The notes under the pieces were generated by a model. It did no database searches. It was not told the DNA's origin and saw nothing but the letters and a program-made list of their open reading frames with translations. Shown one piece after another: positions 4,050-60,585 of a stretch of DNA of 64,000 nucleotides. The stretch covers positions 1,717-65,716 of the forward strand of contig CAMKLG010000011.1 of assembly GCA_946413585.1 (NCBI GenBank), given 5' to 3'. The translations under genes were made by a program, and so were the position numbers. How positions within the stretch are numbered: the stretch's first letter is position 1; each line of letters starts with the position of its first letter. The stretch is from an uncultured Bacteroidales bacterium. Lineage in GTDB: Bacteria > Bacteroidota > Bacteroidia > Bacteroidales > WCHB1-69.

Positions 4050-4178
4050 TACTGACCGCAAGCTAATCCCTTCCCACGAACATGCTGCAGGATGGTTTTA
4101 TGACGCCATAAAATTTCTGCATCTGAGTTCATAACTGTTTCAAAGAAGTTGTGTTTTGCACTTTATATACGAAGAATT

Positions 4179-5387: not shown

Positions 5388-5422
5388 GTCTTCAGAGTGC
5401 CTTTTGTGTAACCAATTCAAGA

Positions 5423-5614
5423 ATGCGTATGCTGACCGTGTCGTGTACTTGGTATTATCCGCAGTTCTGCGCCCGCTATGACAGGGATCCCAAGCAGGCT
5501 GTTGCCACGCGCACGCGCATCTTCAAGAGTCTGCGTGACAACGGACAATACCTTGCGGGAGCCCACTGTTACGAGCATTTCATCAACCTTCGCGACCGTA
5601 ACAAGGAACGTTGA
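5423..5614 (+). pseudogene. probable C-terminal fragment of an MBL-fold hydrolase
   Basis: YPQFCARYDRDPKQAVATRTRIF...LAGAH resembles the end of MBL-fold hydrolases. No HxHxDH region upstream. Confidence 0.4.
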
Positions 5615-5625
5615 GACAGGCTCGT

Positions 5626-42121: not shown

Positions 42122-42153
42122 AAAAAAGCTCCGCGATTGCGGAGCTTTTTTTT
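42119..42153. terminator. bidirectional intrinsic terminator
   Basis: A-run AGCTCCGC-GATT-GCGGAGCT T-run between convergent genes. Confidence 0.9.
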
Positions 42154-45520: not shown

Positions 45521-45662
45521 AATCAACAATATTTCAGAACGATAAAATACTACATAACTTACTAGGTGACAATAAAATAAAGAGGCGTATGTCTCGATAC
45601 CCCATTGTACAACTATCAAGTTGACAAAATTACAAAAAATAATCATCAAAAAATGCGAAAAA

Positions 45663-45691: not shown

Positions 45692-48600
45692 CTACAGCAC
45701 CGTCACGCTCCCCTTCACAAACTCCGGTTTCCCCGCAGCGTTCGTGTAGCGGATGACGTAGTTATATACCGTCTGGTATTGGATGGTGCCGCGGTATTCG
45801 CCGTTCCAGCGGAAGTTCTTGTCGTTGGTGTAATAGACCAGCTCGCCCCAACGGTTGTAAATCCAGATCTCGAAGAGATTAATATTCAGAAGGTTGCGCT
45901 CGGGAATGCTGAAGTAGTCGTTCAGGCCGTCGTGGTTCGACGGGGTGATGGCGTTGGGCAACAGCAGCTGGTCGTCGCAGTTCTCAATCACGAAGCGCGC
46001 TGTGTTGCTGCACTCGCCCTGCGATGCCGTCACGTAATAGCTGCCCGAGTGCGTCACCGTGATGGTAGGTGCGGTCTCGCCCGTGCTCCACACGTAGTTC
46101 GGCATGTCGGTGACCACCATCAGCTCGGCGCTGAGGTCTTCGCAGAAGTCCGGGGTCAGCGAGACGATGCGCACCGCCGTGTCGATGACCCTCAGGCGCA
46201 AGGTTACCACGCTGTCGCAGCCCGCCGCGCTCTGCAGGGTCAACACCCGCGTCAGTTGCTGCTCGCCTACCGTCTCTATCGGCACGACACTGAAGCCGTT
46301 GTCGTCGTAGCCCTCGCCCTCGCACACCACGTCCTCGACTTCCGTCTCGAACAGCGGGTTGACGGTCAGGATCAGCACCACCGCGCTGTCGCAGTGACCC
46401 GTCGCATGGTGCTGCTCGAAGGTGTAGTCGCCGGGCACTGCCGTCTGGTCCGCCGTAACCTCGAAGCCGAAGCCTTCGAAGGCCTCGTTCTGGCACACCG
46501 CCGCCGTGACGGTGTCCATCGTGTTGGGCCACAAGGTGATATTGACCGTGTTGCTGTATTCCGTGCCGCAGCTCTGGCTCACCCACGCGCGGCGCAGGCT
46601 GAACGCCGTCGTCGGGATGTTGGGATAGGTGTAGCTCTGCGTATTGTTCGTGCCCGGGGCGGGAGTCCAGTCCGTGCCATTGGTGGAGACCTGCCACTGG
46701 TAAGCTCCGTTGTCGCCGCCCGAGGCCGCCGTGCCTGTGAACGGCAGCGGTTGCTCGCCCTCGCACACCACCTGGTTCTCGGCGATTGTACCGGGTTGCA
46801 GCGCGTCGTTCAGCGTGTTCAGCGTCACCGTGGCCGTCGCCACACAGCCGATGGCATCCGTCACCGAGAAGGTGTAGTTGCCAGCCGGTTGGTTGCTGAT
46901 GGAGGTCGTGGTGGAGACGCTCGCGCCCGCCGCGTCCGTCCACGCGTACGCGAAATTCGGCATACCGCCCGTCACCGTGGCCGTGGCCGCGCCGTTGCTG
47001 CCGCTGAAGCAGGTCACGTGCGTCACGTTCGGGATGGTCGCGGCAATCTCGTCCACGGACAATGTGTAGGTCACCACGCTGTCCGCGCCATGATCGGTCA
47101 GCAGCGAGTCCACGAACGTGCCTGCCGCCTCGAAGACGTGGCCGCCCCACGTGTAAGGCAGTGCGCTTGCGCAGGCCGTGGCATACACCTGCGCGGTGGT
47201 GTTGTTATAGACTGTCAGGTTGAGAGTCACGGTGCTGTCGCAGCCCGCCGCGTTGGTGAAGTGCTGGTAGTAGGTGCCGGTGGCGGTGTAGGAACTGTCG
47301 TTCAAGACATAAGGCAGGTTGTTTTGGACAATTTCGGCGTTGAGGGTTGTGCCGGTCACCGCATTCACCGTCAGGGTCATCGTCAGCACGCTGTCAGTAC
47401 CGTTCGCCGCCTGCAAAGTAGCCGTCTGAGTACCCGCCGCCGTGAACTCCACTCCGTTCCAGATGAGCGGCAGTTCACTGGAGCATATCGTGCTGTCCGC
47501 GCTCGCATACACCGTCGGAATCACCGCAAGAACGACCGTCAGTGTACTGTCACAGCCCGCCACGTTGGTTAAGGTCTGTGTGTATGTTCCAGCAGAGTCG
47601 TAAGTGTCGGCGTTCAGAGCATAGGGCAGCTCTCGCTCGTAAATCGTCAAGTACAAGGTACTATCAGACGGATAGTGGACCGTCAGGTGCATCACCACCG
47701 TGCTGTCCGCACCCGTGGAAGCTGTAAGGAGAGCGGTTTGAGTGCCAGCAGTGGCGAAGGAAACGCCGTTCCATTCGATGGGAAGTTGGCTTTCGCAAAT
47801 GGTGGAGTCTGCTTCGGAAGTTACGTTATGGTGAATGACTACGTTCACCACAAGGAGACTGTCGCAGTTTTGGGCGTTGGTGAGGGTTTGGGTGTAGGCA
47901 CCTTCTGAGGAATAGAGGCTGTCGTTGATGAGGAGCGGTAGGGCGTTCTCCACCACCGCCGTGTCGAGGGTGCCGTAGGTGGTGAGAAGTACCGTCAAGT
48001 GCATCACTACCGTGCTGTCAGCTCCCGTGAAGGCGGTGAGGACAGCGGTTTTCGTGCCAGCGGCGGCGAAGGAAACGCCGTTCCACTCGATGGGAAGTTG
48101 GCTTTCGCAAATGGCGGAGTCTGTTTCGGAAGTTACGTTATGGTGAACGACTACGTTCACCACAAGGAGACTGTCGCAGTTTTGGGCGTTGGTGAGGGTT
48201 TGGGTGTAGGCACCTTCTGAGGAATAGAGGCTGTCGTTGATGAGGAGCGGTAGGGCGTTCTCCACCACCGCCGTGTCGAGGGTGCCGTAGGTGGTGAGAA
48301 GTACCGTCAAGTGCATCACTACCGTGCTGTCAGCTCCCGTGAAGGCGGTGAGGACAGCGGTTTTCGTGCCAGCGGCGGCGAAGGAAACGCCGTTCCACTC
48401 GATGGGAAGTTGGCTTTCGCAAATGGCGGAGTCTGTTTCGGAAGTTACGTTATGGTGAACGACTACGTTCACCACAAGGAGACTGTCGCAGTTTTGGGCG
48501 TTGGTGAGGGTTTGGGTGTAGGCACCTTCTGAGGAATAGAGGCTGTCGTTGATGAGGAGCGGCAGGGCGTTCTCCACCACCGCCGTGTCGAGGATGCCGT

Positions 48601-51600
48601 AGGTGGTCGGGATTACCGTCAGATGCATCACTACCGTACTGTCCGCACCTGTATGCGCCGTCAGGACAGCACTTTGGATGCCAGCGGCGGCGAAGGAAAC
48701 GCCGTTCCATTCGATGGGGAGCTGGCTTTCGCAGATTGTGGAGTCGGCTTCTGTGGTTACGTTATGGTGAACGACTACGTTCACCACAAGGAGACTGTCG
48801 CAGTTTTGGGCGTTGGTGAGGGTTTGGGTGTAGGCACCTTCTGAGGAATAGAGGCTGTCGTTGATGAGGAGCGGCAGGGCGTTCTCCACCACCGCCGTGT
48901 CAAGGGTGCCGTAGGTGGTCGGGATTACCGTCACGGTCATCAGCAACACGCTGTCTGCGCCGTTCGATGAAGTAAGGATTGCCGGCAGAGTACCTGCCTC
49001 TTCAAAAATCACTCCGTTCCATTCAAATGGCAGCGAGTTTTCGCAAATGGTGGTGTCTGCACTTGCAGACACATTCTCAATCACATTCAGAACCACAGTC
49101 AACACGCTGTCGCAGCCTGCGGCGTTGGTGAGATGCTGGAGGTATGTTCCAGCAGAGTCGTAATAATAACCGTTGAACTCGTAGGGTAGGTCATTCTGCA
49201 AAATCGTCAACGTGGTTGCATCCTCCGTCAACTCATTCACATACAGTCTCATCACAACCAAGCTGTCACATCCGTGCGAGGTCTGCAACTGGGCTGACTG
49301 TTCACCCGCATCCGAGAACGACACATCGTTCCAAACGATCGGAAGTGCGTTGCGGCATACCGTGCTGTCCACCGAAACCGTGTCGGAATGATGCACCGTC
49401 AAATGCATGGTCACCAAGCTGTCACAGCCATAGCTATTCGCCAACATCACATCATAATCTCCTGAAATGGTGTAGGTTGAATCATACCAGTCTTTCGCAT
49501 TACAAACCGTGTCATAGATATGGGTATGATGTATCGGTTTACTTGACACCAAGAGGTTCACCAGGCTGTCGCAACCGAATTCCGAAGCGAGCATGATCCG
49601 GTAGAAGCCGGTGTCAGCCAAAAGCGTGTCGTGATAGAGGTAGGGGTATTCGTTTTCGCAAACATAAATGGTGTCCATCACCTCATACGTGGGCATGATA
49701 ACCAATCGGAGCACTGTGGTGCTGTCGCAGCCGCCGACCGCCGTGCTGTGGTTGACAAACAGGTCGTTGCTATCAGAAATATTCGTCAACGTGAACCCGT
49801 ACCCGGTATATTCCGTTTCATTCACGCATATAGTGTCCGTAAGTTGTACAAAATTGTAGGGCTGAGGATAGACCATCTTGCATCCGCTTACCACTCCGCA
49901 ACCACCTGTGGCAGAGATACATATAGCAAACGAATCAGCGTAGGTGTCAAACAGCATGGTGATTTCGTATGGATTTTGCTGCTGAAGTACGATAATGCTG
50001 TCTGCAACCGTCCATTGCACATGCTGCAGGCCCGCCAGAGAATCCACCCTGTAGGTGTAACTACCTCCTTGACAAGGGTATAGCTCGCCATCTATCTCAG
50101 GCGGTGTATCTGTGTTCGGGGTCACCATCAGTTGGAGAATCACCAAACTGTCACACCCGTCTGCTGCCGTTCCTGCATGGATGGTATCCGTGTATAAACC
50201 TGTTTCTATTGGCGTGAAATTAAAACCGTAATCCTGATAGGAATTGCCCAGGCATATCGTATCCTCCACCACCAGGTGGTTCTCGCGCACATCCAGCTCC
50301 AGTATAAAGGTGCTGTCGCAATATTGCCCAGGCACGCTCACCGCACGGGTATAGGTGAAATGCCCGCTTTCGGAAGTTTCCACATCAAAGCCATGAGAAG
50401 TGTAATGATCTCCCTGGCAAACTGTATCATGGAATGTCAACGTAGGTCCTTCCACCACCTTCACCCGCGCATAGAGGTTGGAGCAGAACACCGTGCCGTT
50501 GCTGGTGATGTAGAGCGTGGCCGAAACCGTGTAGTGGCCAGCAGCAGTGTAATCGTGTACCGCCACCGACGCATTCTGCAACGGACTGCCGTCGCCGAAG
50601 TTCCACACCACACTGTCGCACGGATAGTTGACATACGTGCTGAACTCGATCGGCTCGTAAGGACAGAACTTCGTGTCGGGCGGCAGCTCGGTATTGAGGA
50701 TGCCGTTGACGAACAACTGCTCTTTGAGCGGCACCGCCTTGGAACCGGCAGCATAACCGTAAGATTCGTGGTACCCCAGACCGTAGCAGTGCGCGATGAA
50801 ACCGCCGTCGCAATGCAGCGTGTGAGTGCCGTTGTTAATATGCTTACGTACGAAGGCAAAGTCCGAGCTCCCGTTCAACAGGGCGAACTGGCCGCCGATA
50901 TTTACGCCGTCGAGCGTCACATCGCTAACAGCATCGGAGGGAACCACGATGTTGACGTAATGGTCGGAGATGCCCGGCGAGTTGAAAGTTGCGAAGGTGA
51001 TATTCGTGAGCATCTGCTCGGTAGGTGGAATCCAGACCATTGACGGGTCACTGCGCTCCTGCGAGTTGCCCTGCACAGCGCCTGCGATGTAGAGATAGAC
51101 GCCGGCAGGCTCGGAAGTTTCCAAATAGCAGGAACCGTCACCGCCTGTGAGCTGGAACTCGTGGGTTTGGTAGGCCTGCAACGTGGCAATATGCGTGCCG
51201 TTCTTCCGGATTTCGGTGTTGTTGCGCATCGCGGTCACTCGCACCACATCGAAATTCTGACTCTCGGTGGTGGTGATGGAGAAGGAGCGGCCCCAGTAGT
51301 TGGTCCCCACCGCCTGCTCCACCAGATGGTCGGTGTAGGAGTTGTTGGTGGGCACCAATGCGCAGACGTTGCCGTTGAAGACCGCCACGGGCTTGTTGCC
51401 GTGTGCGTGAATCACTGTGCCCGAAAGGTCACCCAAGACGCCGCCATACTGCGACATTCCCAAGTAGGTCTGCCCCTGCTGGAGCATCACCGAGTAGGTT
51501 TGCTGCGCGGGATGGCCGCCCTGTAATGCCCGAGAAGGCGTAATATCGACCCAAGTGCTGTCCTGGGTGGCCACAATCACGAACTCCGCGTTCATCATCG

Positions 51601-54600
51601 GGGTGTAGGTCTGCAAAATGTACTCGTTGGAGAGCGCATCCACGGGAAACACGTCAGTGACATCAAAGCTGCTGGTGTTGTAGTTGGCGGCATAAACCGA
51701 CACGGTGTCGGAGGTTTCCACCAGAAGTCCGTAATTGCCCACCACGCCTGCCTGTTGGCTATAAGCCTGCGCCAACGGCACGCTGACCGTGGTCACCGAA
51801 TGGTCGGCGACGGAGAAACTCACGCTCCAGCCTGTGCGCGGGTTGCTCACGGTGCCAGTACAAGCCTCCTCCGCCGAGATGTTCAGCGTGAGGGTGGGAT
51901 TATGGAAGTGGTTGCGCAAGTATGACAGCCAGAAGGTCTTGCCCATAGAGGCCGGAGCGCCCAACGAATCGGCCATCATCGAGGACGGCACCACCATCAC
52001 CGTCGCGGTATCGATACACTCGCCGCCGTTGCTGACGATGACGGCATATTCTGTGGGAATCAGTGGCGACACCTGCACGGCGTTGGTGTCTTCGTTGCTA
52101 TGCGTCCAATGATAGTGCATTGCACCGGGCGTGGCCGTTAAGTCAAAATAGTAGCCCTGACAGTTGTCTGACGGAACTTCAATGGCCGACAACGTCAGCT
52201 CAAAGTCGCTGAAGGAGAACTCGTAAGCACCCTGATCGACAATGCTCTCACAGGCGATACGTGGGTCGTCCTTGAGGTCCACCGGCCAAGTTGCCCACTG
52301 GTTGTCGCCCGCATCAATGGCTGGTGAAAGTTGCCGCAACGCGTAGTTATTCTGCTCATTGACAAAGACATCGGGCGTGTCTTCCAGCATATTATGGTCG
52401 CCGGAGAAATGTCCGCCCGCACTCATCGTATGGCCGGGGTTGTTGATGATAATATTGTTGTAGAGATAGAGGGTGTGGGTGGTATCGGTCTGATGCACCG
52501 GATAGCAGATGAAGGTGTCGGGGATGTCTTCGTACAGCTCAAACGCGCCGATTTCAATAGTGTCGGACATAATGCGCGGATGCTTGAAGAGGTCCACCGG
52601 CACTTCGCAGCAAGCATTGTTGCCCTGATTCACCGCGATGGAATTCTCCCGGGGCATATAATTCTCCCGATTGTGTTCGAACAACGTGTCATTATCCTCC
52701 AGGATATTATGCGTGGAAAGGGCGGACACATTCGCATTCAACGCCCAATCGCAGTTGTTGATGACGATATTGTTGCACAGATAGATTTCCGCCGTGTCGG
52801 CCGTCTGCAACACCGCGTAAACCGTATCCACTGTGAAGGTCTCGGTGTAAAACTCGAAGGCACCCACATCAATGGTGTCGTGGATGACACGGTCTTTGTC
52901 ACGAAAATCCAACGAAAGCGTGTTGCAGCTGTTGTCGCCCGCATCCACGGCGGGTGAGTGCGACCAAAGATTGAAGTTGAGGACAGCGTCGGCGAAGACC
53001 TGCACGCTGTCGGAGAGGATGTTGCTCGCCGGCACCGATTCGGCATTCACCATTGCCTCGTGCTCAGGATTATTGACAATGATGTTGTTGCAGAGCGTCA
53101 GGTTATGGCTGCCGACAACATGCACCGCATACGCAGGACCGAATGCCGCCGCATCGGGATCGAACTGCTCAAAGGCACCAATATCTATCGTTTCCGCGAA
53201 AATTCTGGGGCTCTTCGCCAAATCCACCGCCACCTCGTTGCAGCTGTTGTTCCCTCGGTTGACCGCCTGGGACTCGGGTCGGGGCATGTAATCATCGCGG
53301 TTGTCGGTGAATAGGCTGTCCTGATCCGTCAGAATATTGGAAGAGTCCGCTGCCACATTCGTGTTCGGGGAGAAGACGCTGTTGTTGATGATGATGTTGT
53401 TGCAGAGCGTGAGCGTGTCGGGCGTGGTCTGCACCACCGACGTGATGGCGTACCCGCCGTACCAGGTGCCGCCGCCCCCACCGGAGCCGCCTCCGCCGCC
53501 TCCGCCTCCTCCGGCACCACCACCGCCTCCGCCAGCCCAGGTCGAATCCTGAGGCTCACGCTCGGGAATCTCAAACGCACCGATGTCTATCGTGCCGTTC
53601 GTAATACGGGTCACCGTATCGATGTCCGTGGCCCAGCTGCTGCAGCTGTTGTCGCCCGCATCCACGGCCGGGGAGTGCTCTGTCGGCTTGAAGTTGAGCA
53701 CCGCGTCGCAGAAGAGCGCGATGCTGTCCGACAGGATATTGCTTTCGGGAACCTCCCCGATGTTGGTTTCCGCCTCGTGCTCGGGATTGTTCACGATGAT
53801 GTTGTTGCAAAGCAGAAGTGTATGGTGCTGAACCTGATGCACCGCGTACGCCGGCCCGAACACGCCCTCTTCCTCCTCTGCCAACTCGAAAGCACCCATC
53901 TCAATGGTGCCGCCCGAGATGCGCTCGTGTCCGTCCAAGTCCTTCTCCACAGAGTTGCACGCATTATTACCTGCGTTCACCGCCTCCGATTCGGGACGAG
54001 GCGTGTAATCATCTGTGTTGTCCGTAAACAACGTATCCACGTCTGTGACAATGTTATACGCCACATCCGCTACGTTGGTATTCTCCGAATAGACGCAATT
54101 GTTGATGATGATGTTGTTGCAGAGGCTCACCACCGCGTTGTCCTGAAACACCGTGTAAGCCTGCACGGTGACCGTATCGGTGTTGACCGTGAACTCGAAC
54201 GCACCCACATCGATGGCATTGCCCTGCACACGGGTATGGACGTCAATGTCCACGGGCAACGAAAGGCATCCGTTCGAACCCGCATCCACCGCCGGGGAGT
54301 GCGACCAAAGCCCGAAATGGATAATCGCATCCTGAAACACCTGCAGGCTGTCGGAAAGGATATTGTTGCTCGGCACAGCCGTCAGGTTCGTCATGGCCGT
54401 ATGCTCGGGATTGTTGACGATGATGTTGTTGCAGAGCACCAATTGTCCCGTTCCGGTTTGGTGCACCGCGTATTGCGGGGTTCTGGCCTCCACCGGGTAC
54501 TCGTAGGCACCCAAATCGACAGTCCCGTTCACCACGCGGGGATGGCCGTCCAGATCCTCCTGCCCGACAGCGCAACCGTTGTCACCCGCATCAATCGCGG

Positions 54601-54838
54601 GCGAATGGGTGGGCAGCCGGAAGTCGCCCTGCGAATCCACGAAGAGACCGCCGACCGCCTGCGTGAGGTTGAAGGCCGACAACGAGATGTTGACCTCGCC
54701 GTCCGCGTTGTTGACCACGATATTGTTGCACACCGACACCGCCGCGCTGTCCTCAATCAGCAGCCCGAAGCCCGTCTGGGCATTCGCCGCGATCAGACCG
54801 CACAACAGAATCACTATGCTAAATATCCGTTTCATCAA
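45692..54838 (-). CDS. 3048-aa T9SS surface protein: 8x choice-of-anchor-Q-like, IgGFc-binding-like, PKD, many GCDS repeats, SprB-like repeat, type B CTD
   Basis: Signal peptide; 8x CNNIIxNN...SPAVDAGxN...DxGAFE; GKTFWLSY...FVIVATQD; WNFGDG; PNAITP...DGLND...IYNRWG...KGSVTVL. Confidence 0.9.
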   Translation of the reverse strand: MMKRIFSIVILLCGLIAANAQTGFGLLIEDSAAVSVCNNIVVNNADGEVNISLSAFNLTQAVGGLFVDSQGDFRLPTHSPAIDAGDNGCAVGQEDLDGHPRVVNGTVDLGAYEYPVEARTPQYAVHQTGTGQLVLCNNIIVNNPEHTAMTNLTAVPSNNILSDSLQVFQDAIIHFGLWSHSPAVDAGSNGCLSLPVDIDVHTRVQGNAIDVGAFEFTVNTDTVTVQAYTVFQDNAVVSLCNNIIINNCVYSENTNVADVAYNIVTDVDTLFTDNTDDYTPRPESEAVNAGNNACNSVEKDLDGHERISGGTIEMGAFELAEEEEGVFGPAYAVHQVQHHTLLLCNNIIVNNPEHEAETNIGEVPESNILSDSIALFCDAVLNFKPTEHSPAVDAGDNSCSSWATDIDTVTRITNGTIDIGAFEIPEREPQDSTWAGGGGGGAGGGGGGGGGSGGGGGTWYGGYAITSVVQTTPDTLTLCNNIIINNSVFSPNTNVAADSSNILTDQDSLFTDNRDDYMPRPESQAVNRGNNSCNEVAVDLAKSPRIFAETIDIGAFEQFDPDAAAFGPAYAVHVVGSHNLTLCNNIIVNNPEHEAMVNAESVPASNILSDSVQVFADAVLNFNLWSHSPAVDAGDNSCNTLSLDFRDKDRVIHDTIDVGAFEFYTETFTVDTVYAVLQTADTAEIYLCNNIVINNCDWALNANVSALSTHNILEDNDTLFEHNRENYMPRENSIAVNQGNNACCEVPVDLFKHPRIMSDTIEIGAFELYEDIPDTFICYPVHQTDTTHTLYLYNNIIINNPGHTMSAGGHFSGDHNMLEDTPDVFVNEQNNYALRQLSPAIDAGDNQWATWPVDLKDDPRIACESIVDQGAYEFSFSDFELTLSAIEVPSDNCQGYYFDLTATPGAMHYHWTHSNEDTNAVQVSPLIPTEYAVIVSNGGECIDTATVMVVPSSMMADSLGAPASMGKTFWLSYLRNHFHNPTLTLNISAEEACTGTVSNPRTGWSVSFSVADHSVTTVSVPLAQAYSQQAGVVGNYGLLVETSDTVSVYAANYNTSSFDVTDVFPVDALSNEYILQTYTPMMNAEFVIVATQDSTWVDITPSRALQGGHPAQQTYSVMLQQGQTYLGMSQYGGVLGDLSGTVIHAHGNKPVAVFNGNVCALVPTNNSYTDHLVEQAVGTNYWGRSFSITTTESQNFDVVRVTAMRNNTEIRKNGTHIATLQAYQTHEFQLTGGDGSCYLETSEPAGVYLYIAGAVQGNSQERSDPSMVWIPPTEQMLTNITFATFNSPGISDHYVNIVVPSDAVSDVTLDGVNIGGQFALLNGSSDFAFVRKHINNGTHTLHCDGGFIAHCYGLGYHESYGYAAGSKAVPLKEQLFVNGILNTELPPDTKFCPYEPIEFSTYVNYPCDSVVWNFGDGSPLQNASVAVHDYTAAGHYTVSATLYITSNGTVFCSNLYARVKVVEGPTLTFHDTVCQGDHYTSHGFDVETSESGHFTYTRAVSVPGQYCDSTFILELDVRENHLVVEDTICLGNSYQDYGFNFTPIETGLYTDTIHAGTAADGCDSLVILQLMVTPNTDTPPEIDGELYPCQGGSYTYRVDSLAGLQHVQWTVADSIIVLQQQNPYEITMLFDTYADSFAICISATGGCGVVSGCKMVYPQPYNFVQLTDTICVNETEYTGYGFTLTNISDSNDLFVNHSTAVGGCDSTTVLRLVIMPTYEVMDTIYVCENEYPYLYHDTLLADTGFYRIMLASEFGCDSLVNLLVSSKPIHHTHIYDTVCNAKDWYDSTYTISGDYDVMLANSYGCDSLVTMHLTVHHSDTVSVDSTVCRNALPIVWNDVSFSDAGEQSAQLQTSHGCDSLVVMRLYVNELTEDATTLTILQNDLPYEFNGYYYDSAGTYLQHLTNAAGCDSVLTVVLNVIENVSASADTTICENSLPFEWNGVIFEEAGTLPAILTSSNGADSVLLMTVTVIPTTYGTLDTAVVENALPLLINDSLYSSEGAYTQTLTNAQNCDSLLVVNVVVHHNVTTEADSTICESQLPIEWNGVSFAAAGIQSAVLTAHTGADSTVVMHLTVIPTTYGILDTAVVENALPLLINDSLYSSEGAYTQTLTNAQNCDSLLVVNVVVHHNVTSETDSAICESQLPIEWNGVSFAAAGTKTAVLTAFTGADSTVVMHLTVLLTTYGTLDTAVVENALPLLINDSLYSSEGAYTQTLTNAQNCDSLLVVNVVVHHNVTSETDSAICESQLPIEWNGVSFAAAGTKTAVLTAFTGADSTVVMHLTVLLTTYGTLDTAVVENALPLLINDSLYSSEGAYTQTLTNAQNCDSLLVVNVVIHHNVTSEADSTICESQLPIEWNGVSFATAGTQTALLTASTGADSTVVMHLTVHYPSDSTLYLTIYERELPYALNADTYDSAGTYTQTLTNVAGCDSTLTVVLAVIPTVYASADSTICSSELPLIWNGVEFTAAGTQTATLQAANGTDSVLTMTLTVNAVTGTTLNAEIVQNNLPYVLNDSSYTATGTYYQHFTNAAGCDSTVTLNLTVYNNTTAQVYATACASALPYTWGGHVFEAAGTFVDSLLTDHGADSVVTYTLSVDEIAATIPNVTHVTCFSGSNGAATATVTGGMPNFAYAWTDAAGASVSTTTSISNQPAGNYTFSVTDAIGCVATATVTLNTLNDALQPGTIAENQVVCEGEQPLPFTGTAASGGDNGAYQWQVSTNGTDWTPAPGTNNTQSYTYPNIPTTAFSLRRAWVSQSCGTEYSNTVNITLWPNTMDTVTAAVCQNEAFEGFGFEVTADQTAVPGDYTFEQHHATGHCDSAVVLILTVNPLFETEVEDVVCEGEGYDDNGFSVVPIETVGEQQLTRVLTLQSAAGCDSVVTLRLRVIDTAVRIVSLTPDFCEDLSAELMVVTDMPNYVWSTGETAPTITVTHSGSYYVTASQGECSNTARFVIENCDDQLLLPNAITPSNHDGLNDYFSIPERNLLNINLFEIWIYNRWGELVYYTNDKNFRWNGEYRGTIQYQTVYNYVIRYTNAAGKPEFVKGSVTVL
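47690..48930 (-). repeat. 312-bp (104-aa) intragenic tandem repeat, about 4 copies
   Basis: LDTAVVENALPLLINDSLYSSEGAYTQTLTNAQNCDS occurs four times. Antisense ORFs at 47999 and 48311 are identical. Confidence 0.92.
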
Positions 54839-54845
54839 CTTTGTC

Positions 54846-56327
54846 CTAATTTTTCACACACCTGACAGAAAACCCTTTGTCGGAAGTCGTATAATTGCTG
54901 GAAAAGGCTGCATTGTCGTACGAGAGCGTCCAATAGACGCAATCGCTGTTGGAAGAGCCGTTCCGGGAGGTGGTCCAGAAGAAGCCCTGCGTGTAGAGCC
55001 CGTTGAAGGAGCCGTTATAGGAACCGGCGGGGCGGGCATCAAACAGGGTGATATTGTTGGCAGACAGGTCGTTACCCACCGCGCAGTTCACGTCGGAAGT
55101 CTGCCAGTACTCGTTGGCGGCAAGGGCCTTGGCCAAGTTGCTCGCCGACTGTCCGCAATAGTAGGCGTTGTCGGCTGCCAGCCAAGAGGCCAACTGCGAA
55201 AATTCCGTGGTCGAGGGAAGATGCCAGCCGTTGGGGCAGACCCCCTGCATCCCGCTGGGGGCATTGTCGGTGTAGTTGCTCTGGGTGCCGTGCCGCGCTG
55301 CCGCCACGTTGTAGAGCAGCCCGAAGGTCTCAGTCTCGGCGGCGGAGGTACCCGCGTTGTAGTAGCGAGGTTCCGAGGTAGAGATGGTCAGAGCGTTGGA
55401 AATAGCCGTCCCGTCGGCGAAGTGCGTCACGCGCAGGTTCTCGCGCATCCAGCACTGCTCGCCAATGAGCACGGTGGCATACACGTTGTTGTCGTAGTCG
55501 GTCACGGTGCCGCAGTTGAAACCGTAATTGCGGGTGATGGTGTTGTTGGTCACACTGCCGGAAGCCGCCGCGGCCCCATAGCCGTTGTCGGCGCGGTTGA
55601 AACAGACCACGCTGTTGAGCAGGATACCGTTGTTCTGCACATAGACTCCTCCACCCTTGGCCGGTTGGTCGTCCGCGATGCCGTGGGCCATGCAGAGGGT
55701 GATGACGCAGTGCGTCACCGTGCCGCCATCGACCAAAACCCCGCCGCCATGGACGGAGGACTTGCCGTGCCGCACGACACAGCCCTCCAGCCTTCCGCCT
55801 GTCTGCACTGTAGCCACGCGATGGGTCATCCCACCGTCGAGCACTGTGCAGCGCGACAGATTCGTCCACTGGCTGTTTGCGCCGGGAAGCTGCCGTTGCG
55901 TGGTGTCCATGCCCGTGCTGGTGGTCGCATACCCGCCCGTGACGGTCACGCCCTCAGGGATCACCAGCTCCGCAGCCTCCTCATACAGCCCCGCCATGAC
56001 ATAGACATGTGTACCTGCATTGGCAATGGCCAATGCCCCTGACACCGTACGCTTCGCCGTTTCCCACGAGAGCCCGTTGCCGCTGTCGTCCGTTGCAGCC
56101 GCCGACACAAAGACCTGTGCGTGAGCATGTGCGCAGAGGCACAGGAGGAGGACTGCAAGGACACGCAGGCTCCTACCCCATACTGCGTTTCGCTTGTATG
56201 GGGTTATTTGCACTCCGTGCGCCCCACACTGCGCCCCACACTGCGGCTTCGCCTTGTGTGGGGTTAATTGCACTCCGTGCGTATTGCCTCTTCGAGGCTG
56301 CTCAAGGTATATTGTTAGATTTAACAT
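54846..56327 (-). CDS. secreted truncated beta-helix (DUF1565-like start) + FISUMP protein A
   Basis: VFVS....GNGLSWETAK, GGGV.V repeats ending NNTITRN, then DYDNNVYATVLIGEQCWMRENLR...CPNGWHLPS...GFSVRCVK. Confidence 0.85.
   Translation of the reverse strand: MLNLTIYLEQPRRGNTHGVQLTPHKAKPQCGAQCGAHGVQITPYKRNAVWGRSLRVLAVLLLCLCAHAHAQVFVSAAATDDSGNGLSWETAKRTVSGALAIANAGTHVYVMAGLYEEAAELVIPEGVTVTGGYATTSTGMDTTQRQLPGANSQWTNLSRCTVLDGGMTHRVATVQTGGRLEGCVVRHGKSSVHGGGVLVDGGTVTHCVITLCMAHGIADDQPAKGGGVYVQNNGILLNSVVCFNRADNGYGAAAASGSVTNNTITRNYGFNCGTVTDYDNNVYATVLIGEQCWMRENLRVTHFADGTAISNALTISTSEPRYYNAGTSAAETETFGLLYNVAAARHGTQSNYTDNAPSGMQGVCPNGWHLPSTTEFSQLASWLAADNAYYCGQSASNLAKALAANEYWQTSDVNCAVGNDLSANNITLFDARPAGSYNGSFNGLYTQGFFWTTSRNGSSNSDCVYWTLSYDNAAFSSNYTTSDKGFSVRCVKN
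56176..56302 (-). repeat. REP-like palindromic cluster inside the 5' end of ORF 54846-56327
   Basis: Two 60-bp-spaced units CCCCAYAC...GTRTGGGG-TTAWTTGCACTCCGTGCG plus a GCCTC-TTC-GAGGC hairpin. Confidence 0.75.
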
Positions 56328-56374
56328 TCTTTATTTTTCATTCTGCATTCATATTTAGTTTTGTTTCTCCTTGT

Positions 56375-56397
56375 GACGCAAAATTTTGCGTCTCTAC
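56375..56397. repeat. GTAG-type REP palindrome
   Basis: GACGCAAAATTTTGCGTCTCTAC; sister copy at 59055. Confidence 0.8.
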
Positions 56398-56405
56398 CCC
56401 TCCTC

Positions 56406-59015
56406 TCATTCGTCTCGGAGGCAGCGGACAGAATAACCCTCTGATGGATTTTGTGTGTCACGTATAACAGTTGGACTATCATAAGTTAATTTTCTACGCC
56501 AAGCAGTTGTTCCTGAAAGCGTAGAACTCCAATAATACGCGCCCTCTCCATATTTCCAATATTCACCGTTATAAGCACCTGCCGGAAGTATTCCAAAGTC
56601 GAGCAAATTATTGTCTGATGGAGCATTTCCGACGGCACATTCTACAGAAGAACTGTTCCAGCCTGAATTCGAAGCTATGGATTTTGCAATATTTTCAGTA
56701 TTGCCACCACATAAATTCACGTGATGATCAGAAAGATAATCAGTCAACTGAGTCCATTCGGCATCACTGGGTATATGCCAGCCTGCAGGACATAGCTTTT
56801 GGATTGACTGTATAGAACTTGAAACCGCTAACGAAAAACCAGAATTAGTAACACTACCATCTGAGGTAAATCTTAAAGTCAATGGTCCAGATTGAGAAGT
56901 GACATTTAAAGAACCTGATCCCTGATAACTTCCTATTTGCTGTGACGTACCTATTCCATCATAAACATAAATATGGTCGCAACAATTCTCTGTATTATAA
57001 TCACCTGCAATGGTAAGTCGAGCACCTTCAACTGCTGGAACCAATACTACCGTAGCATTACGACTATTTGCATAATTGCCATCTGGTCCACCATTATCAT
57101 AAATCATCATCAGAGAATTAACAGTAAGCGTTACTTCTCCTGACTCTGGCATACTATAGCTTGACATATTCGTTGAAGCAATCCATTTGTAAAGATAACC
57201 ATATTCCTGTACAATTGTCGAATCGTTATTGGGATAGTATCTTAGAGCCACCGTTGGAGAAATAGAATTACCCAACGCTATTCCCGCTCCGTCAGTATAA
57301 TGAGTAACACGCAAGTTCTCTTTCATCCAGCATTGCGAACCAATTTGCACCGTGTTATACTGGTTCCCGTCATAGTCAGTGAGGGTCGTCACCCCACAAC
57401 CTCCAGACATTATCGTCCGCTCCTCCCCATAGCTAACCCCTGCATGATTGACTGCGTATGCCCGTACATAATAGGTAACTTCTCCCGACAGTCCGGAAAT
57501 GATTGCCGAGAATTGAGCCACACCAACCCCTTGAATATGATTGTCCTCTATTGTAGGATTATGAGAGGTGCTCCAACAGAAACCGTAATTCGTTATCTCT
57601 GAACCTGCATCTTGACAGAATCCTTTTGCCATAGCTTGAGTCGATGTGTTCCGGGTAGCCTCCGTAGTATGAACTACAGAAAGTTCATCCAACTGTTTCA
57701 CGCAACGGACGGAATAGGCATTGGACTTAGTTCCTGTATTGCGAATCATTCTGTTGTCATCATAATTCATGTACCGATTCCACCCACTGGTTGAACTATT
57801 TTCTCTGGTACTCCAAAAACTAGCGTTTGTGCTGAAAGCATAGTAGTTGTCTGTACGGTAGCCAGCAGGATATGACGCATATCCCGTAACATTATTGTTC
57901 TCTTGGCTATTTCCGACATAACACCCCGTACTAGATGAACTCCATCCAGATCTCGAAGCCAAAGCCTTTGCTATCTGTCCGTCATAGCCACTGCAACGAT
58001 AACGGGAAATGCCATTCACAAAGCTTGTCAATTCCGTCCATTCGGCATCGCTCGGCACATGCCAACCCTGAGGGCATATACCTGTCACACCTGAGGGGTT
58101 GTCATTGGAAGAAGGGGCTCCGTGCATCACCGCCGGCCAATTGTACAAGTATCCATAATTCACAAGATTAGTGGCAGTGAGCGCATTGTAGTTGATATAA
58201 TAGTAAGGTGATGTGCTCGAGGTTGGCTGGTTGTTTCCCAACGGAATAGCCGTTCCGTCGTTGTAATGCGTGGTACGGAGGTTCTCGTGGGTCCAGCACT
58301 GCTGGCCGATCACCACCGTATTATAGACATTGCCGTCGTAGTCGGCCACCTTACCGCAGTGGGTGGGCCAGTTGCGGGTGATGGTGTTGTTCACGAGAGA
58401 ACCAGGGCCGCCTGCCACAGCTGGGCCATTGTCGCCACGGCACTCGGTAATCACACAGTTGGTGAGGACACCGTTGTTGCGAATGTAAGCGCCACCGCCT
58501 TCGGCCGTGCGGGCACTTTCTTGGATGGCATCGCACTCACGGATCACGCAGTAGCGCACCATGCCACCGTCAATCAACACACCGCCGCCCTGTCCCGTGG
58601 TAACCCCTCTACGCATCACGCAGCCCTCCAAAAGCCCGTTCACCACGGCGATACGGTTCGAACCGCCACCGGTAAGTATCGTGCAGACTGCTGCGTTCTC
58701 CCACCGGCTGTTGGTGCCAGGAAGTTCCCGACCTGCGGTGTCCGTGCCCGACAGTGTGAGACGATAGCCGCCCTTCACAGAAACGCCTGCAGGAATGTTC
58801 AGTTGCGACCCCACGCTATAGCTACCGGCCTTCACATACACCGTGCCGTTGTTACCCGCCGCCGCAATGCCCGCCGCTATGGTCTGCTTTGCCGTCCCCC
58901 ACGTCTGGCCATTGTTACTATCATTCCCTGAGGAAGAGACAAAGACCTGCGTCTGCGCGTACGCCATTGACACCGCACAGCACATTATTGCCATTATGAT
59001 TGTTCGTATATTCAT
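56406..59015 (-). CDS. secreted truncated beta-helix + FISUMP + FN3-like + FISUMP (with CUB insert) protein B
   Basis: Same N-domain; two DYDGN.Y.TV.IG.QCW..ENLR domains; GFCWSTSHNPT...TYYVRAYA; YDNGG..GNY...FTSDGSV...GF CUB. Confidence 0.87.
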   Translation of the reverse strand: MNIRTIIMAIMCCAVSMAYAQTQVFVSSSGNDSNNGQTWGTAKQTIAAGIAAAGNNGTVYVKAGSYSVGSQLNIPAGVSVKGGYRLTLSGTDTAGRELPGTNSRWENAAVCTILTGGGSNRIAVVNGLLEGCVMRRGVTTGQGGGVLIDGGMVRYCVIRECDAIQESARTAEGGGAYIRNNGVLTNCVITECRGDNGPAVAGGPGSLVNNTITRNWPTHCGKVADYDGNVYNTVVIGQQCWTHENLRTTHYNDGTAIPLGNNQPTSSTSPYYYINYNALTATNLVNYGYLYNWPAVMHGAPSSNDNPSGVTGICPQGWHVPSDAEWTELTSFVNGISRYRCSGYDGQIAKALASRSGWSSSSTGCYVGNSQENNNVTGYASYPAGYRTDNYYAFSTNASFWSTRENSSTSGWNRYMNYDDNRMIRNTGTKSNAYSVRCVKQLDELSVVHTTEATRNTSTQAMAKGFCQDAGSEITNYGFCWSTSHNPTIEDNHIQGVGVAQFSAIISGLSGEVTYYVRAYAVNHAGVSYGEERTIMSGGCGVTTLTDYDGNQYNTVQIGSQCWMKENLRVTHYTDGAGIALGNSISPTVALRYYPNNDSTIVQEYGYLYKWIASTNMSSYSMPESGEVTLTVNSLMMIYDNGGPDGNYANSRNATVVLVPAVEGARLTIAGDYNTENCCDHIYVYDGIGTSQQIGSYQGSGSLNVTSQSGPLTLRFTSDGSVTNSGFSLAVSSSIQSIQKLCPAGWHIPSDAEWTQLTDYLSDHHVNLCGGNTENIAKSIASNSGWNSSSVECAVGNAPSDNNLLDFGILPAGAYNGEYWKYGEGAYYWSSTLSGTTAWRRKLTYDSPTVIRDTQNPSEGYSVRCLRDE

Positions 59016-59054
59016 TGTTTTGTCGTATATTCGTTTATGTTATTATTTCGCGGT

Positions 59055-59082
59055 GTAGAGACGCAAAATATTGCGTCTCTAC
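59055..59082. repeat. GTAG-type REP palindrome
   Basis: GTAGAGACGCAAAATATTGCGTCTCTAC. Confidence 0.85.
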
Positions 59083-59102
59083 AGTTCTCTTTATTCGTCG
59101 TT

Positions 59103-60422
59103 TTATTCCGAATCTTTGAGACAGCGAAGGGAACGTCCTTCAGACGTTTCACCATAATAAATTCTTACATAACTCTGTCCGTAATCGAGAAAAAGGTAGT
59201 AAACGTAGCTACCTGTCACAGTAGTACTCCACAAATAGGCATATCCAGCGAAATGATAAGCATAAGAAGAAGAGCGAAAACCCGCAGGCATAACACCAAA
59301 ACGCGTGGCATTATTATTGGCAGGAGTATTACCTATAGCACAGTTGTTACTATATAAGTCCCATCCTGTTTTAGAAGCCAACGCTTTGGATATGTTGGCG
59401 GAATTTCCACCACACCACCAAGCACTTCGAGAGGAAACAAAATTTATTAATTGATTCCATTCAGCATAGCTCGGCACATGCCAACCCTCAGGGCAAACAC
59501 CCTGCACGCCGCTGGGGTTGGCATTGGAAGTAGCTGATCCATGCATCACAGCCGCCCAATTGTAAAGCAGACCGTATGCAACTACATTACTGGCACTATT
59601 ATTGGGGTAATACCAATATGCAACCGTTGAACTTGTAGAAGAATTGGTCGGTATCGCCGTGCCATCTGAATAGTGCGTTGTTCGCAAGTTCTCCTTCATC
59701 CAGCATTGGGAGCCAATCTGCACAGTGTGGTAAGTATTGCCGTCGTAGTCGGTAACGGTACCGCACTGGGAAGGCCAGTTGCGGGTGATGGTGTTGTTGA
59801 TGAGGCTGCCGTCCTCGCCGGAAACGCCCGCACCGTTGTCGCCCCGGCACTCGGTTACCACGCTGTTGAGCAACATGCCGTTGTTCTTCACGTAGGCGCC
59901 GCCGCCCTCGGCCGTGCCGTCGTCATCGTGGATGGCATCGTTCCAAATCAGCACACAGTAGCGCGCCGTGCCCCCGTCAATCAGCAAGCCGCCACCCATG
60001 GTGTTGGTAAAGCCATAACGGGCCACGCAGCCGTCCAAAGTGCCGTTCACCGTGGCAATGCGGTGGTTGCCCGCGCCGGAGATAATGGTGCACCACGAGG
60101 TGTTGCCCCAATTGCTGTTGATGCCGGGGAGTCGCCGCAGGGAGGTGTCGGTGCCGGCAGAAGACTGCTGGTAGCCGCCCATCACCGTCACGCCGGCGGG
60201 AATGGTGAGCTCGGCGGTGGTGGCGTAATTGCCGGCCTTCACAAACACCGTGCCGTTGCCGCCCGCCGCAGCGATGCCCGCCGCAATGGTCTTCTTAGCC
60301 GTCTCCCACGTGGTGCCGTCGCCGTTGTCGTTGGAGGCGGAAGCGGAAACAAAAACCGTGTTTTGCGCCTGTAAGCCTGCCAGAAGGAGGACACAAAAAG
60401 CAAATAAAAGATATCTTTTCAT
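59103..60422 (-). CDS. secreted truncated beta-helix + FISUMP protein C
   Basis: Signal peptide MKRYLLFAFCVLLLAGLQAQ, same N-domain ending NNTITRNWP, FISUMP ending GRSLRCLKD. Confidence 0.87.
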   Translation of the reverse strand: MKRYLLFAFCVLLLAGLQAQNTVFVSASASNDNGDGTTWETAKKTIAAGIAAAGGNGTVFVKAGNYATTAELTIPAGVTVMGGYQQSSAGTDTSLRRLPGINSNWGNTSWCTIISGAGNHRIATVNGTLDGCVARYGFTNTMGGGLLIDGGTARYCVLIWNDAIHDDDGTAEGGGAYVKNNGMLLNSVVTECRGDNGAGVSGEDGSLINNTITRNWPSQCGTVTDYDGNTYHTVQIGSQCWMKENLRTTHYSDGTAIPTNSSTSSTVAYWYYPNNSASNVVAYGLLYNWAAVMHGSATSNANPSGVQGVCPEGWHVPSYAEWNQLINFVSSRSAWWCGGNSANISKALASKTGWDLYSNNCAIGNTPANNNATRFGVMPAGFRSSSYAYHFAGYAYLWSTTVTGSYVYYLFLDYGQSYVRIYYGETSEGRSLRCLKDSE

Positions 60423-60585
60423 TGGAAACATTTTTTCAACTTTTACCATATACATTTCATCTTGCAAAGATGCAACTGTTTTTAATTAATACAATATAAT
60501 GTGGAGAAAAATTGTGTGGAGACAGACTTCAGGTTTCAGGTTCCAGGTTTCAAGTTTCAGAGAACACCTGACACCTGATATGGAG

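What the first reader, a model, noticed from the sequence alone, without database searches (positions are those of the whole stretch)
45692..60422. Candidate split beta-helix scaffold: eight orphan caps on a T9SS stalk and three cap-less beta-helix-FISUMP cargo proteins
Seen: the giant protein starts with eight consecutive ~100-aa units (xNNIIxNN...F.D...SPAVDAGxN...R.....DxGAFE; 52210-54775) with no beta-helix body between them. The three genes immediately upstream encode signal peptide + beta-helix N-cap and rungs that all stop at NNTITRN, then switch to FISUMP domains, and none has a T9SS CTD. Established: choice-of-anchor-Q-like segments normally close a right-handed beta-helix in the same chain, following an NxTIxxN rung with an NxIxxxN rung. 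Inference: each cargo completes its beta-helix in trans on one scaffold cap. This would be a cohesin/dockerin-like docking system displaying up to eight interchangeable FISUMP binding heads on a long stalk, and could let CTD-less cargo hitchhike through or assemble outside the T9SS.
Basis: partly seen in the sequence, partly recalled or inferred. Interest (0 to 1): 0.88.

Follow-up and report, generated by a model that had tools for sequence, protein, structure and literature searches.

The report
Split beta-helix docking on T9SS stalk
A giant surface protein of a rumen-type Bacteroidales bacterium starts with eight "end-cap" pieces of a beta-helix that have no helix body, and the three genes just upstream encode helix bodies without caps fused to lectin-like heads, so the two probably snap together into a multi-headed adhesin by a docking principle not described before.

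Summary

- **Scaffold:** the 3048-aa protein (45692-54838, minus strand) has a signal peptide and eight ~100-aa choice-of-anchor-Q units. A long stalk and a T9SS type-B CTD follow.
- **Cargo:** the three upstream genes encode a signal peptide, a ~205-aa beta-helix body ending in NNTITRN, then FISUMP domain(s). None has a CTD.
- **Fused form elsewhere:** in many giant proteins, body and cap alternate in one chain.
- **Co-occurrence:** within the bacterium's family, the same 11 of 152 genomes hold both parts. All 13 loci have the order cargo genes, then cap array, on one strand. Cargo and cap counts rise together (1:1 up to 5:15).
- **Complex model:** full-length cargo plus one cap scored ipSAE 0.80 against a best control of 0.00. 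The NNTITRN rung stacks on the cap's CNNIIVNN rung.
- **Caps alone:** they fold poorly (AF2 pLDDT 64; pLDDT 25 beside an unrelated protein).

Best reading (about 0.6): each cap completes a cargo helix in trans, which would give a bottle-brush of lectin-like heads. Binding is modelled, not measured. Export of the cargo by hitchhiking through the T9SS is inference only.

The parts
45692..54838 (-). Scaffold gene, 3048 aa (probable ATG at 54835). Signal peptide, 8 orphan cap units, IgGFc_binding-like domain, PKD domains, many ~80-aa Cys-containing repeats, SprB repeat, T9SS type-B CTD.
54500..54778 (-). Cap unit 1 (aa 21-113). It starts right after the predicted signal-peptide cleavage site ANA|Q.
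54194..54499 (-). Cap unit 2 (aa 114-215), class A
53885..54193 (-). Cap unit 3 (aa 216-318), class B
53570..53884 (-). Cap unit 4 (aa 319-423), class A. This is the unit used in the complex model.
53168..53569 (-). Cap unit 5 (aa 424-557), class B. It is preceded by a 22-residue Gly-rich linker (aa 436-457, nt 53468-53533).
52853..53167 (-). Cap unit 6 (aa 558-662), class A
52538..52852 (-). Cap unit 7 (aa 663-767), class B
52220..52537 (-). Cap unit 8 (aa 768-873), the 'last-unit' class shared by arrays of other genomes
50780..51652 (-). IgGFc_binding-like domain (aa 1063-1353). It lies in the region that is orthologous in 12 of 13 loci.
45701..45961 (-). T9SS type-B C-terminal sorting domain (aa 2960-3046)
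54846..56327 (-). Cargo gene 3 (P0002): body at 55503-56147, NNTITRN at 55527-55547, FISUMP at 54849-55493. The start codon is uncertain because a dispersed repeat element lies in the 5' end.
56406..59015 (-). Cargo gene 2 (P0003, 869 aa): body at 58350-58970, NNTITRN at 58371-58391, FISUMP 1 at 57693-58337, second FISUMP with a CUB-like insert at 56412-57371.
59103..60422 (-). Cargo gene 1 (P0004, probable start M16 at 60422): body at 59754-60377, NNTITRN at 59778-59798, FISUMP at 59112-59744.

Best explanation
This is a two-part surface assembly built on a split right-handed beta-helix.

The parts. The scaffold is exported by Sec and then by the T9SS through its type-B CTD. It carries eight half-domains at its far (N-terminal) end. 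Each half-domain holds the last two or so rungs plus the choice-of-anchor-Q closing element, and has no helix body. Each of the three co-located genes makes a Sec-exported protein whose N-terminal half is a helix body: an N-cap helix plus rungs that end in NNTITRN, with no closing element. Its C-terminal half is one or two FISUMP domains, which have a C-type-lectin-like fold.

The docking. A body docks on a cap by rung-on-rung stacking, NNTITRN on CNNIIVNN. This rebuilds the ~300-aa body-plus-cap module that related giants encode in one chain. The cap appears to fold only on binding.

The result. A long stalk tipped with a brush of up to eight lectin-like heads (1-15 in relatives), which would act as a multivalent adhesin of a ruminant-gut bacterium.

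Shown: the domain anatomy, the fused form elsewhere, the strict co-occurrence and gene order, and the joint rise in copy number.
Modelled: the interface.
Inferred: where assembly happens (in the periplasm followed by co-export, or outside the cell), the stoichiometry, and the ligand.
For: (a) Anatomy. There are 8 NF041518 stretches and no body in the scaffold. The three cargos have bodies, no cap and no CTD.

(b) Fused form elsewhere. A profile of the body found 5133 representatives at E<=0.001. I printed the domain maps of the first 45 of the 148 listed representatives that I scanned. Many giants among them alternate body and full-length cap, for example P0144, P0156, P0157, P0159 and P0166. 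NF041518 was confirmed in P0157 and P0166.

(c) Co-occurrence both ways. The same 11 of 152 family genomes hold both parts. In 13 of 13 loci the cargo genes lie directly upstream of the cap array on the same strand, and no ORF holds both parts. The 3 metagenome contigs that reach past the last cargo gene, out of 15 close ones, all run into a cap array. In a sample of 401 genomes of the order, full-length orphan units were found only in the window's genome.

(d) Counts rise together. Cargo:caps = 1:1, 1:2, 2:2, 1:4, 3:8 (x4), 3:10, 4:13, 4:14 (x2), 5:15. Spearman rho is 0.96 over 13 non-independent loci. On a tree of the scaffold's conserved region, two supported sister contrasts change both numbers the same way: 3:8 against 5:15, and 3:8 against 4:14. 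A deep clade with 1-2 cargos and 1-2 caps stands against one with 3-5 cargos and 8-15 caps.

(e) Complex model (ESMFold2). Mature full-length cargo plus cap unit 4 gave ipSAE 0.79, 0.86 and 0.80 (median 0.80). The best of 3 controls was 0.00. That mark was reached by 58 of 80 solved complexes and 2 of 110 mismatched pairs; the tool notes these counts hold only roughly because I supplied my own alignments. The runs share at least 93% of their contacts. Partner pLDDT was 75-80. The lowest-error contacts are cargo 207-215 (LINNTITRN) with cap 24-33 (LLCNNIIVNN).

(f) Caps alone. AF2 pLDDT 64.1 and pTM 0.30 for units 1-4. pLDDT 25 for a cap beside an unrelated protein. The cargo alone folds at pLDDT 92.4.

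(g) FISUMP is not a general cap. Two cargos of one locus have about 600 aa of Fn3/Ig spacer between body and FISUMP.

(h) Arrays are old and conserved by position. The pattern first, (A B)x3, last is shared by four genomes, and units within an array are only 30-60% identical.

(i) Conservation. Modelled interface residues are more conserved than the rest on both sides: cargo 23 of 41 against 66 of 162 at >=90%; cap mean 0.55 against 0.37.

(j) T9SS machinery. SprA and three PorP/SprF genes are present in the genome.
Against: - Nothing has been measured.
- The complex pass may only reproduce the fused body-cap fold that the model knows from single-chain relatives. The tool warns of this for halves of a split gene. 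It therefore shows that the two halves remain complementary, not that they bind in the cell.
- Only one cargo-cap pair was modelled.
- The weak AF2 model of the array could reflect a poor alignment. It had 68 rows from tandem repeats and 931 columns for a 403-aa query, with some rows out of register.
- The conservation of the interface is confounded, because the same residues are core rung residues.
- A4 and my cap HMM were built from the very loci that were then counted, so the positive side of the co-occurrence is partly circular. The absence elsewhere is not.
- The loci are related and have partly moved between genera, so there are few independent observations.
- Caps outnumber cargo genes about 3:1, and cap classes do not map one-to-one onto cargo paralogs.
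- No PorP/SprF gene lies next to the scaffold.
- How a CTD-less periplasmic protein would reach the surface is unknown.
Confidence: 0.6

Rival explanations
1. Co-functioning but not docked. The cap array is a self-sufficient repeat region, a spacer or an adhesive segment made of mini beta-helix beads. The three FISUMP proteins are separate secreted or periplasmic lectins. They share an operon with the scaffold for regulatory or functional reasons and do not bind it.
For: Neighbouring genes often do not bind each other. The complex pass can come from likeness to the fused forms (caveat printed). Individual units reach pLDDT 70-84 in places in the AF2 array model.
Against: This reading does not explain several findings:
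- Bodies without caps and caps without bodies occur only together.
- Their numbers rise together.
- The cap is modelled as unfolded without the cargo (pLDDT 25).
- The same two pieces form one module in other proteins.
Confidence: 0.2
2. Carrier only. Docking is real but transient. The scaffold's caps hold CTD-less FISUMP proteins in the periplasm and carry them through the T9SS translocon. Afterwards the cargos are released to the medium or to vesicles instead of being displayed.
For: The evidence for binding is the same as for the main reading. The cargos have signal peptides and no CTD. A review states that the T9SS moves folded proteins across the outer membrane (PMC9251779, passages read).
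Against: Completing a fold with 130-156 confident contacts suggests a stable association, not a releasable one. No protease or release element is evident in the locus. My searches found no precedent for protein hitchhiking in the T9SS (listings only, plus passages of one review).
Confidence: 0.1
3. Cis-stacked rod. The eight units stack on one another into one continuous helix-like rod, so at most the free N-terminal face of unit 1 accepts a single cargo.
For: Each unit begins with rung-like strands that could stack on something. Unit 1 starts directly at the mature N-terminus.
Against: AF2 gives no confident packing between units: pTM 0.30, with the linkers below pLDDT 50. The modelled cap was internal unit 4, not unit 1, and it accepted the cargo. 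Cap numbers scale with cargo gene numbers, which a single-site model does not predict.
Confidence: 0.08

Closest known systems
Single-chain (beta-helix body + choice-of-anchor-Q cap)n giant surface proteins, e.g. cluster representatives P0144, P0157, P0166
   Same: They use the same two homologous pieces in the same order. The body ends in an Asn-rich rung and is followed by a full-length cap unit.
   Different: There, both pieces sit in one chain and each module is complete. Here the pieces lie in different genes: the bodies carry FISUMP heads, and the caps form a body-less tandem array.
Cellulosome scaffoldin with cohesin-dockerin pairs (recalled from general knowledge)
   Same: The logic matches: a tandem array of docking sites on an anchored scaffold, with several co-encoded proteins each carrying a matching docking module plus a functional domain.
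   Different: There is no homology. Pfam finds no cohesin or dockerin here. The proposed docking is completion of a fold, not the binding of two folded domains. The heads are all of one domain family (FISUMP). Export would be by the T9SS in a Gram-negative cell.
SprB-type T9SS type-B CTD giant adhesins anchored through PorP/SprF-like proteins (PMC9143113, abstract seen in the listing; SprB size from PMC9251779)
   Same: It is a giant repeat-rich protein with an SprB repeat and a CHU_C / type-B CTD. The genome has SprA and PorP/SprF genes.
   Different: No PorP/SprF gene is adjacent. No N-terminal orphan cap array, and no partner proteins docked in trans, turned up for such proteins in my searches.
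Donor-strand complementation in pili and TasA/TapA fibres (TasA/TapA: PMC10151520, title and abstract start seen; the rest recalled)
   Same: One protein supplies the piece of a fold that is missing in another.
   Different: There, a single strand completes an Ig-like or jelly-roll fold and builds polymers. Here, a ~100-aa segment with rungs and a closing element would complete a beta-helix, on a multi-site scaffold.

Membership tests
choice-of-anchor Q domain (NCBIfam NF041518) | Match to the curated HMM above its cut-off | tested here: met
   8 stretches, 222.4 bits against a cut-off of 25. In the six-frame search, 7 of the 8 single units are above the cut-off on their own and one scores 24.0.
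choice-of-anchor Q domain (NCBIfam NF041518) | Usual context: it closes a right-handed beta-helix in the same chain | tested here: not met
   No body domain is found anywhere in the scaffold. The usual context is seen in fused relatives and in a 513-aa protein of the same genome.
T9SS type-B CTD cargo (TIGR04131 / Pfam CHU_C PF13585) | C-terminal sorting domain above the cut-off, plus an N-terminal signal peptide | tested here: met
   TIGR04131 scores 38.2 against 35, and PF13585 scores 54.4 against 27, at aa 2960-3046. The signal peptide MKRIFSIVILLCGLIAANA|Q was read by eye, not by a predictor.
T9SS type-B CTD cargo | A PorP/SprF-like partner encoded next to it | tested here: not met
   The genome has three PF11751 matches, on contigs C5, C16 and C25. 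None is on C11.
FISUMP / Fib_succ_major (TIGR02145, PF09603) | HMM match above the cut-off in each cargo | tested here: met
   TIGR02145 scores 89.9, 193.3 (2 stretches) and 104.9 bits against a cut-off of 41.65. Pfam agrees.
Right-handed parallel beta-helix (DUF1565 PF07602 / Beta_helix PF13229) for the cargo N-domain | HMM match and a rung-type fold | tested here: inconclusive
   PF07602 scores 23.5 against 20.3, in P0002 only. PF13229 scores below its cut-off in relatives. The AF2 model at pLDDT 92.4 shows short strands in rung rhythm. The best Foldseek matches are beta-helix proteins, but weak (E 2e-3, TM 0.26).
Cohesin-dockerin (cellulosome) | Cohesin and dockerin domains | tested here: not met
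   No such Pfam family was reported at E<=0.01 for any of the six proteins scanned. The likeness is one of function only.

The most novel reading that the evidence does not exclude
This would be a natural docking system built on a split beta-helix. A tandem array of 'closing' half-domains on a T9SS stalk folds only when it captures 'open-ended' beta-helix bodies of separately encoded lectin-like proteins. CTD-less proteins would then cross the outer membrane by riding on a CTD-bearing scaffold and would be displayed as a brush of 1 to 15 heads. The whole cassette moves between genera of rumen Bacteroidales. It would be the first non-cohesin scaffold-and-dock system, the first case of protein hitchhiking through the T9SS, and a ready-made orthogonal pair of protein-joining modules.
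Probability: 0.3. Interest if true: 0.9.

Novelty: new variant of a known kind. Interest (0 to 1): 0.82.

Why it matters
If the docking is real, it gives three things.

1. It is a new way for Bacteroidota to build multi-protein surface structures. It would also explain how signal-peptide-only FISUMP proteins, a large paralogous family of unknown function (34 matches in this genome alone), could be displayed.
2. It opens a testable question about the T9SS: can the translocon carry a non-covalent passenger that has no CTD?
3. It offers a compact pair of natural modules, about 205 aa and about 100 aa, that may associate by completing a fold. That is of interest for protein engineering.

It also gives rumen microbiology a candidate multivalent adhesin in an uncultured Bacteroidales lineage.

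No paper in the library that was searched holds the term 'choice-of-anchor Q' (0 papers). Searches that joined type IX secretion with hitchhiking or piggybacking listed nothing on protein co-export (listings only, plus passages of PMC9251779).

Tried and rejected
- **PDB sequence search with the whole array:** it hit only artificial Gly-Ser linkers, through the protein's own Gly-rich linker. This is meaningless.
- **PDB profile search with 107 cap units:** no hit at E<=1, so there is no solved relative by sequence.
- **Foldseek of the cargo model against the PDB:** only weak beta-helix likenesses (best 9cdu, E 2e-3), with no hit at E<=0.001. It told nothing about how the helix end is covered.
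- **Scan of genome contigs with the body profile:** it returned 73 loci. Only 7 were close (>=60% identity), all titled as Bacteroidales MAGs from ruminant guts. The other 66 were distant beta-helix proteins of other phyla. I did not analyse the HMM results for those 66.
- **P0005 and P0006 as parts of the system:** neither flanking gene was found in the 12 fetched related loci, apart from a 21-residue P0005 match at the edge of L004. I therefore leave them out.
- **One cap class per cargo paralog:** there are 4 classes for 3 cargos here, and 8-11 classes for 4-5 cargos elsewhere. There is no simple mapping.
- **A diversity-generating retroelement acting on the FISUMP heads:** one 219-nt stretch of cargo 2 differs wholesale in two other runs, but the genome holds no template-like second copy. 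I did not search for a reverse transcriptase.
- **Expression:** one RNA-labelled library held 0.08 of the sampled words. Its short contigs (151-379 nt) lie on the cap region and on all three cargo genes. These are contigs, and DNA carry-over is not excluded, so this is at most a hint. Gaps in its cover mean nothing.
- **Mini-scaffold of locus L009 (729 aa, 4 caps):** no family matches its last ~280 aa, and no CTD was found. Whether it is complete is open.


Full report
**What is there**

All genes of interest lie on the minus strand. The ORF 45692-54838 encodes 3048 aa. NCBIfam finds eight stretches of the choice-of-anchor-Q domain (NF041518, 222.4 bits against a cut-off of 25) and a T9SS type-B sorting domain (TIGR04131, 38.2 against 35). 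Pfam adds IgGFc_binding (aa 1063-1353), PKD domains, an SprB repeat and CHU_C at aa 2960-3046.

The eight units run from aa 21 to 873, directly after a signal-peptide-like N-terminus. Each is about 100 aa. Each holds a CNNI[IV][IV]NN rung and ends in G[AQ][FY]E. They are only 30-60% identical to each other and follow the pattern first, (A B)x3, last.

The three genes upstream are 59103-60467 (probable start 60422), 56406-59015 and 54846-56327. Each encodes a signal-peptide-like start and a ~205-aa domain that is 49-62% identical among the three. In all three this domain ends in the invariant NNTITRN. One or two FISUMP domains follow at once, reaching the C-terminus. No CTD model matched.

**Are these really halves of one module?**

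A profile of the cargo body was searched against 1.84 billion cluster representatives. It found 5133 proteins at E<=0.001, and the best 150 were listed. I scanned the 148 of these that were on file with my own HMMs of body and cap, and printed the domain maps of the first 45.

- Short proteins with a single body have no cap.
- Many giants show body, cap, body, cap in one chain. The body often reaches profile position ~207 and the cap often starts near its own first positions, for example in P0144, P0156, P0157, P0159 and P0166.
- The curated NF041518 model confirms 4 and 6 caps in P0157 and P0166.
- In the window's own genome, the only other NF041518 matches are single caps in a 513-aa frame and in a 3702-aa frame. 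The 513-aa frame has a lipoprotein-type signal (read by eye) and Asn-rich rung motifs, and its single cap sits at the very C-terminus.

This locus has bodies without caps and caps without bodies. The body occurs three times in the 2.98-Mb genome, all here, while FISUMP matches 34 times across the genome.

**Co-occurrence**

Within the bacterium's family, 152 genomes were searched, the window's own included.

- Strong body matches (E<1e-60) occur in 11 genomes.
- Full-length orphan cap units (E<=1e-15) occur in the same 11 and in no other.
- NF041518 matches in those genomes fall in tandem at ~300-nt spacing right beside the cargo genes.

I fetched the 12 other loci and scanned every frame. In 13 of 13 loci, 1-5 cargo genes are followed on the same strand by an ORF that opens with 1-15 caps. 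No ORF holds both parts.

The counts (cargo:caps) are 1:1, 1:2, 2:2, 1:4, 3:8 (four loci), 3:10, 4:13, 4:14 (two loci) and 5:15. Spearman rho is 0.96. The loci are related, so this overstates the case.

A tree of the scaffold's conserved region gives two well-supported sister contrasts in which both numbers change together: 3:8 against 5:15, and 3:8 against 4:14. It also gives a deep split between a clade with 1-2 cargos and 1-2 caps and a clade with 3-5 cargos and 8-15 caps. That tree mixes the genera, which suggests that the cassette moves between them.

The scaffold is orthologous after the caps in 12 of 13 loci. The exception (L009) is a 729-aa protein with four caps.

Wider searches gave the following.

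- Of 15 close metagenome contigs, 3 reach past the last cargo gene, and all 3 run into a cap array.
- In a sample of 401 genomes of the order, only the window's genome has full-length orphan units. The other eight genomes with a match show partial matches, from profile position 24-39 onward, as fused caps do.
- The close named relatives are titled as Bacteroidales MAGs from reindeer, yak and sheep guts, plus one record whose title names no source (L013-L019).

One caveat applies. The cap alignment A4 and my cap HMM were built from these same loci, so only the absence elsewhere is an unbiased result.

**Structure models**

The cargo alone (58-row alignment) folds with mean pLDDT 92.4 and pTM 0.82. 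Short strands in rung rhythm run up to residue ~213, and the FISUMP domain follows. Foldseek gives only weak beta-helix likenesses.

Cap units 1-4 alone (68 rows) give pLDDT 64.1 and pTM 0.30, and the linkers between units fall below 50. This shows no confident packing of caps on each other. The alignment of tandem repeats was partly out of register, so this is weak evidence.

The single complex job took the mature full-length cargo, FISUMP included, and internal cap unit 4 with a 107-row alignment.

- ipSAE was 0.79, 0.86 and 0.80 (median 0.80). The best of three controls was 0.00.
- That mark was reached by 58 of 80 solved complexes and 2 of 110 mismatched pairs. The tool says these counts hold only roughly with my own alignments.
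- The runs share at least 93% of their contacts. Partner pLDDT was 75-80.
- The lowest-error contacts are cargo 207-215 with cap 24-33, that is LINNTITRN on LLCNNIIVNN, and cargo 200 with cap 15-16.
- With the cargo replaced by an unrelated protein, the same cap drops to pLDDT 25.

The pass may still come from the model's knowledge of fused relatives. No relative of the cap has a solved structure by sequence. The result therefore shows that the two halves are still complementary, not that they bind in a cell.

**Further points**

- Every cargo examined ends in FISUMP: 9 of 9 from other loci and 10 of 10 single-body cluster representatives. The heads are variants of one family, not different kinds of domain.
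- In locus L010 about 600 aa of Fn3/Ig-like spacer separates body and FISUMP, so FISUMP cannot be the general cover of the helix end.
- FISUMP appears in papers on diversity-generating retroelements among their target domains, and one abstract describes such targets as C-type-lectin domains. I saw listings and abstract starts only. This fits a ligand-binding head.
- Modelled interface residues are more conserved than the rest on both sides, but they are also core rung residues.
- The genome has SprA (2398 bits) and three PorP/SprF genes, none next to the scaffold.
- A review states that the T9SS exports folded proteins and very large ones (PMC9251779, passages read).

**Reading**

The best explanation, at about 0.6, is a split beta-helix docking system. 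Each cap completes the helix of a cargo in trans, which tips a T9SS-anchored stalk with a brush of lectin-like heads.

Where assembly happens and how the CTD-less cargo crosses the outer membrane are open. Co-export on the scaffold is attractive but only inferred.

The rivals are:
- an operon of proteins that work together without docking (0.2);
- a carrier-only role, with release of the cargo after export (0.1);
- a cis-stacked rod with one free end (0.08).

**Novelty**

No paper in the searched library holds 'choice-of-anchor Q'. Searches that joined T9SS with hitchhiking, piggybacking or beta-helix complementation listed nothing of this kind (listings only).

The logic resembles the cellulosome's scaffoldin and, in mechanism, donor-strand complementation. 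The fold, the fold-completing dock and the T9SS setting differ from both. I therefore file it as a new variant of a known kind.

Noticed in passing
window 59054-59083 and 56373-56400: The same G+C-rich palindrome (core GAGACGCAAAAT..TTGCGTC) sits in both gaps between the cargo genes, just after the stop codons of cargo 1 and cargo 2. A 61-nt query around the first copy gives 28 BLAST hits across contigs of the genome. It is a dispersed hairpin element, perhaps an intercistronic terminator or an RNA-stability signal. It shows very high summed contig depth in all four runs laid.
   Followed up: partly
window 56150-56320: Two tandem copies of a ~45-nt hairpin repeat lie inside the annotated 5' end of cargo gene 3 (P0002). 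A 171-nt query gives 94 BLAST hits genome-wide. Between the repeat and the signal-peptide core there is no ATG, GTG or TTG, so the real start is uncertain: either the upstream ATG with a ~60-aa leader, or a CTG. One other run replaces 140 nt here with 86 other letters. In the closest related locus (L004) the matching gene's frame ends after the body, at 279 aa, so this third cargo may be decaying.
   Followed up: partly
window 57721-57941 (first FISUMP domain of cargo 2): In contigs of two other runs, 219 nt are replaced by 222 different letters while the flanks match. This is a strain-variable patch in a lectin-like head. The genome holds no second, template-like copy. I did not search for a reverse transcriptase.
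   Followed up: partly
window 53468-53533: A 22-residue Gly-rich linker (G6 A G9 S G5) interrupts the array before unit 5. Arrays of relatives also have a longer gap near the middle. Contigs of other runs show joints and inserted letters here, so its length probably varies.
   Followed up: no
window 60621-63239 (-) and 42152-45649 (-): The gene upstream of the cargos (872 aa, no family match) has a C-terminus that looks by eye like a distant FISUMP/DUF1566-type domain. The gene downstream of the scaffold is a plug-less outer-membrane beta-barrel with a CarboxypepD_reg domain (OMP_b-brl_4). Neither was found in the 12 fetched related loci, apart from a 21-residue match of the upstream gene at the edge of L004.
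   Followed up: partly
L009 (G088:C14) 4019-6205 (-): A second, much smaller scaffold of 729 aa has four caps of a single class and one cargo gene upstream. Its last ~280 aa match no family, and no CTD was found. Two genomes (G049, G088) carry two such loci each.
   Followed up: partly
tree of the scaffold's conserved region, loci L001-L012: The scaffold tree interleaves three genera of the family. For example, a locus of genus g19 is sister to one of g15, and a g15 locus sits inside g1. The system is also patchy within the family (11 of 152 genomes). Together these suggest transfer of the whole cassette between rumen Bacteroidales.
   Followed up: partly
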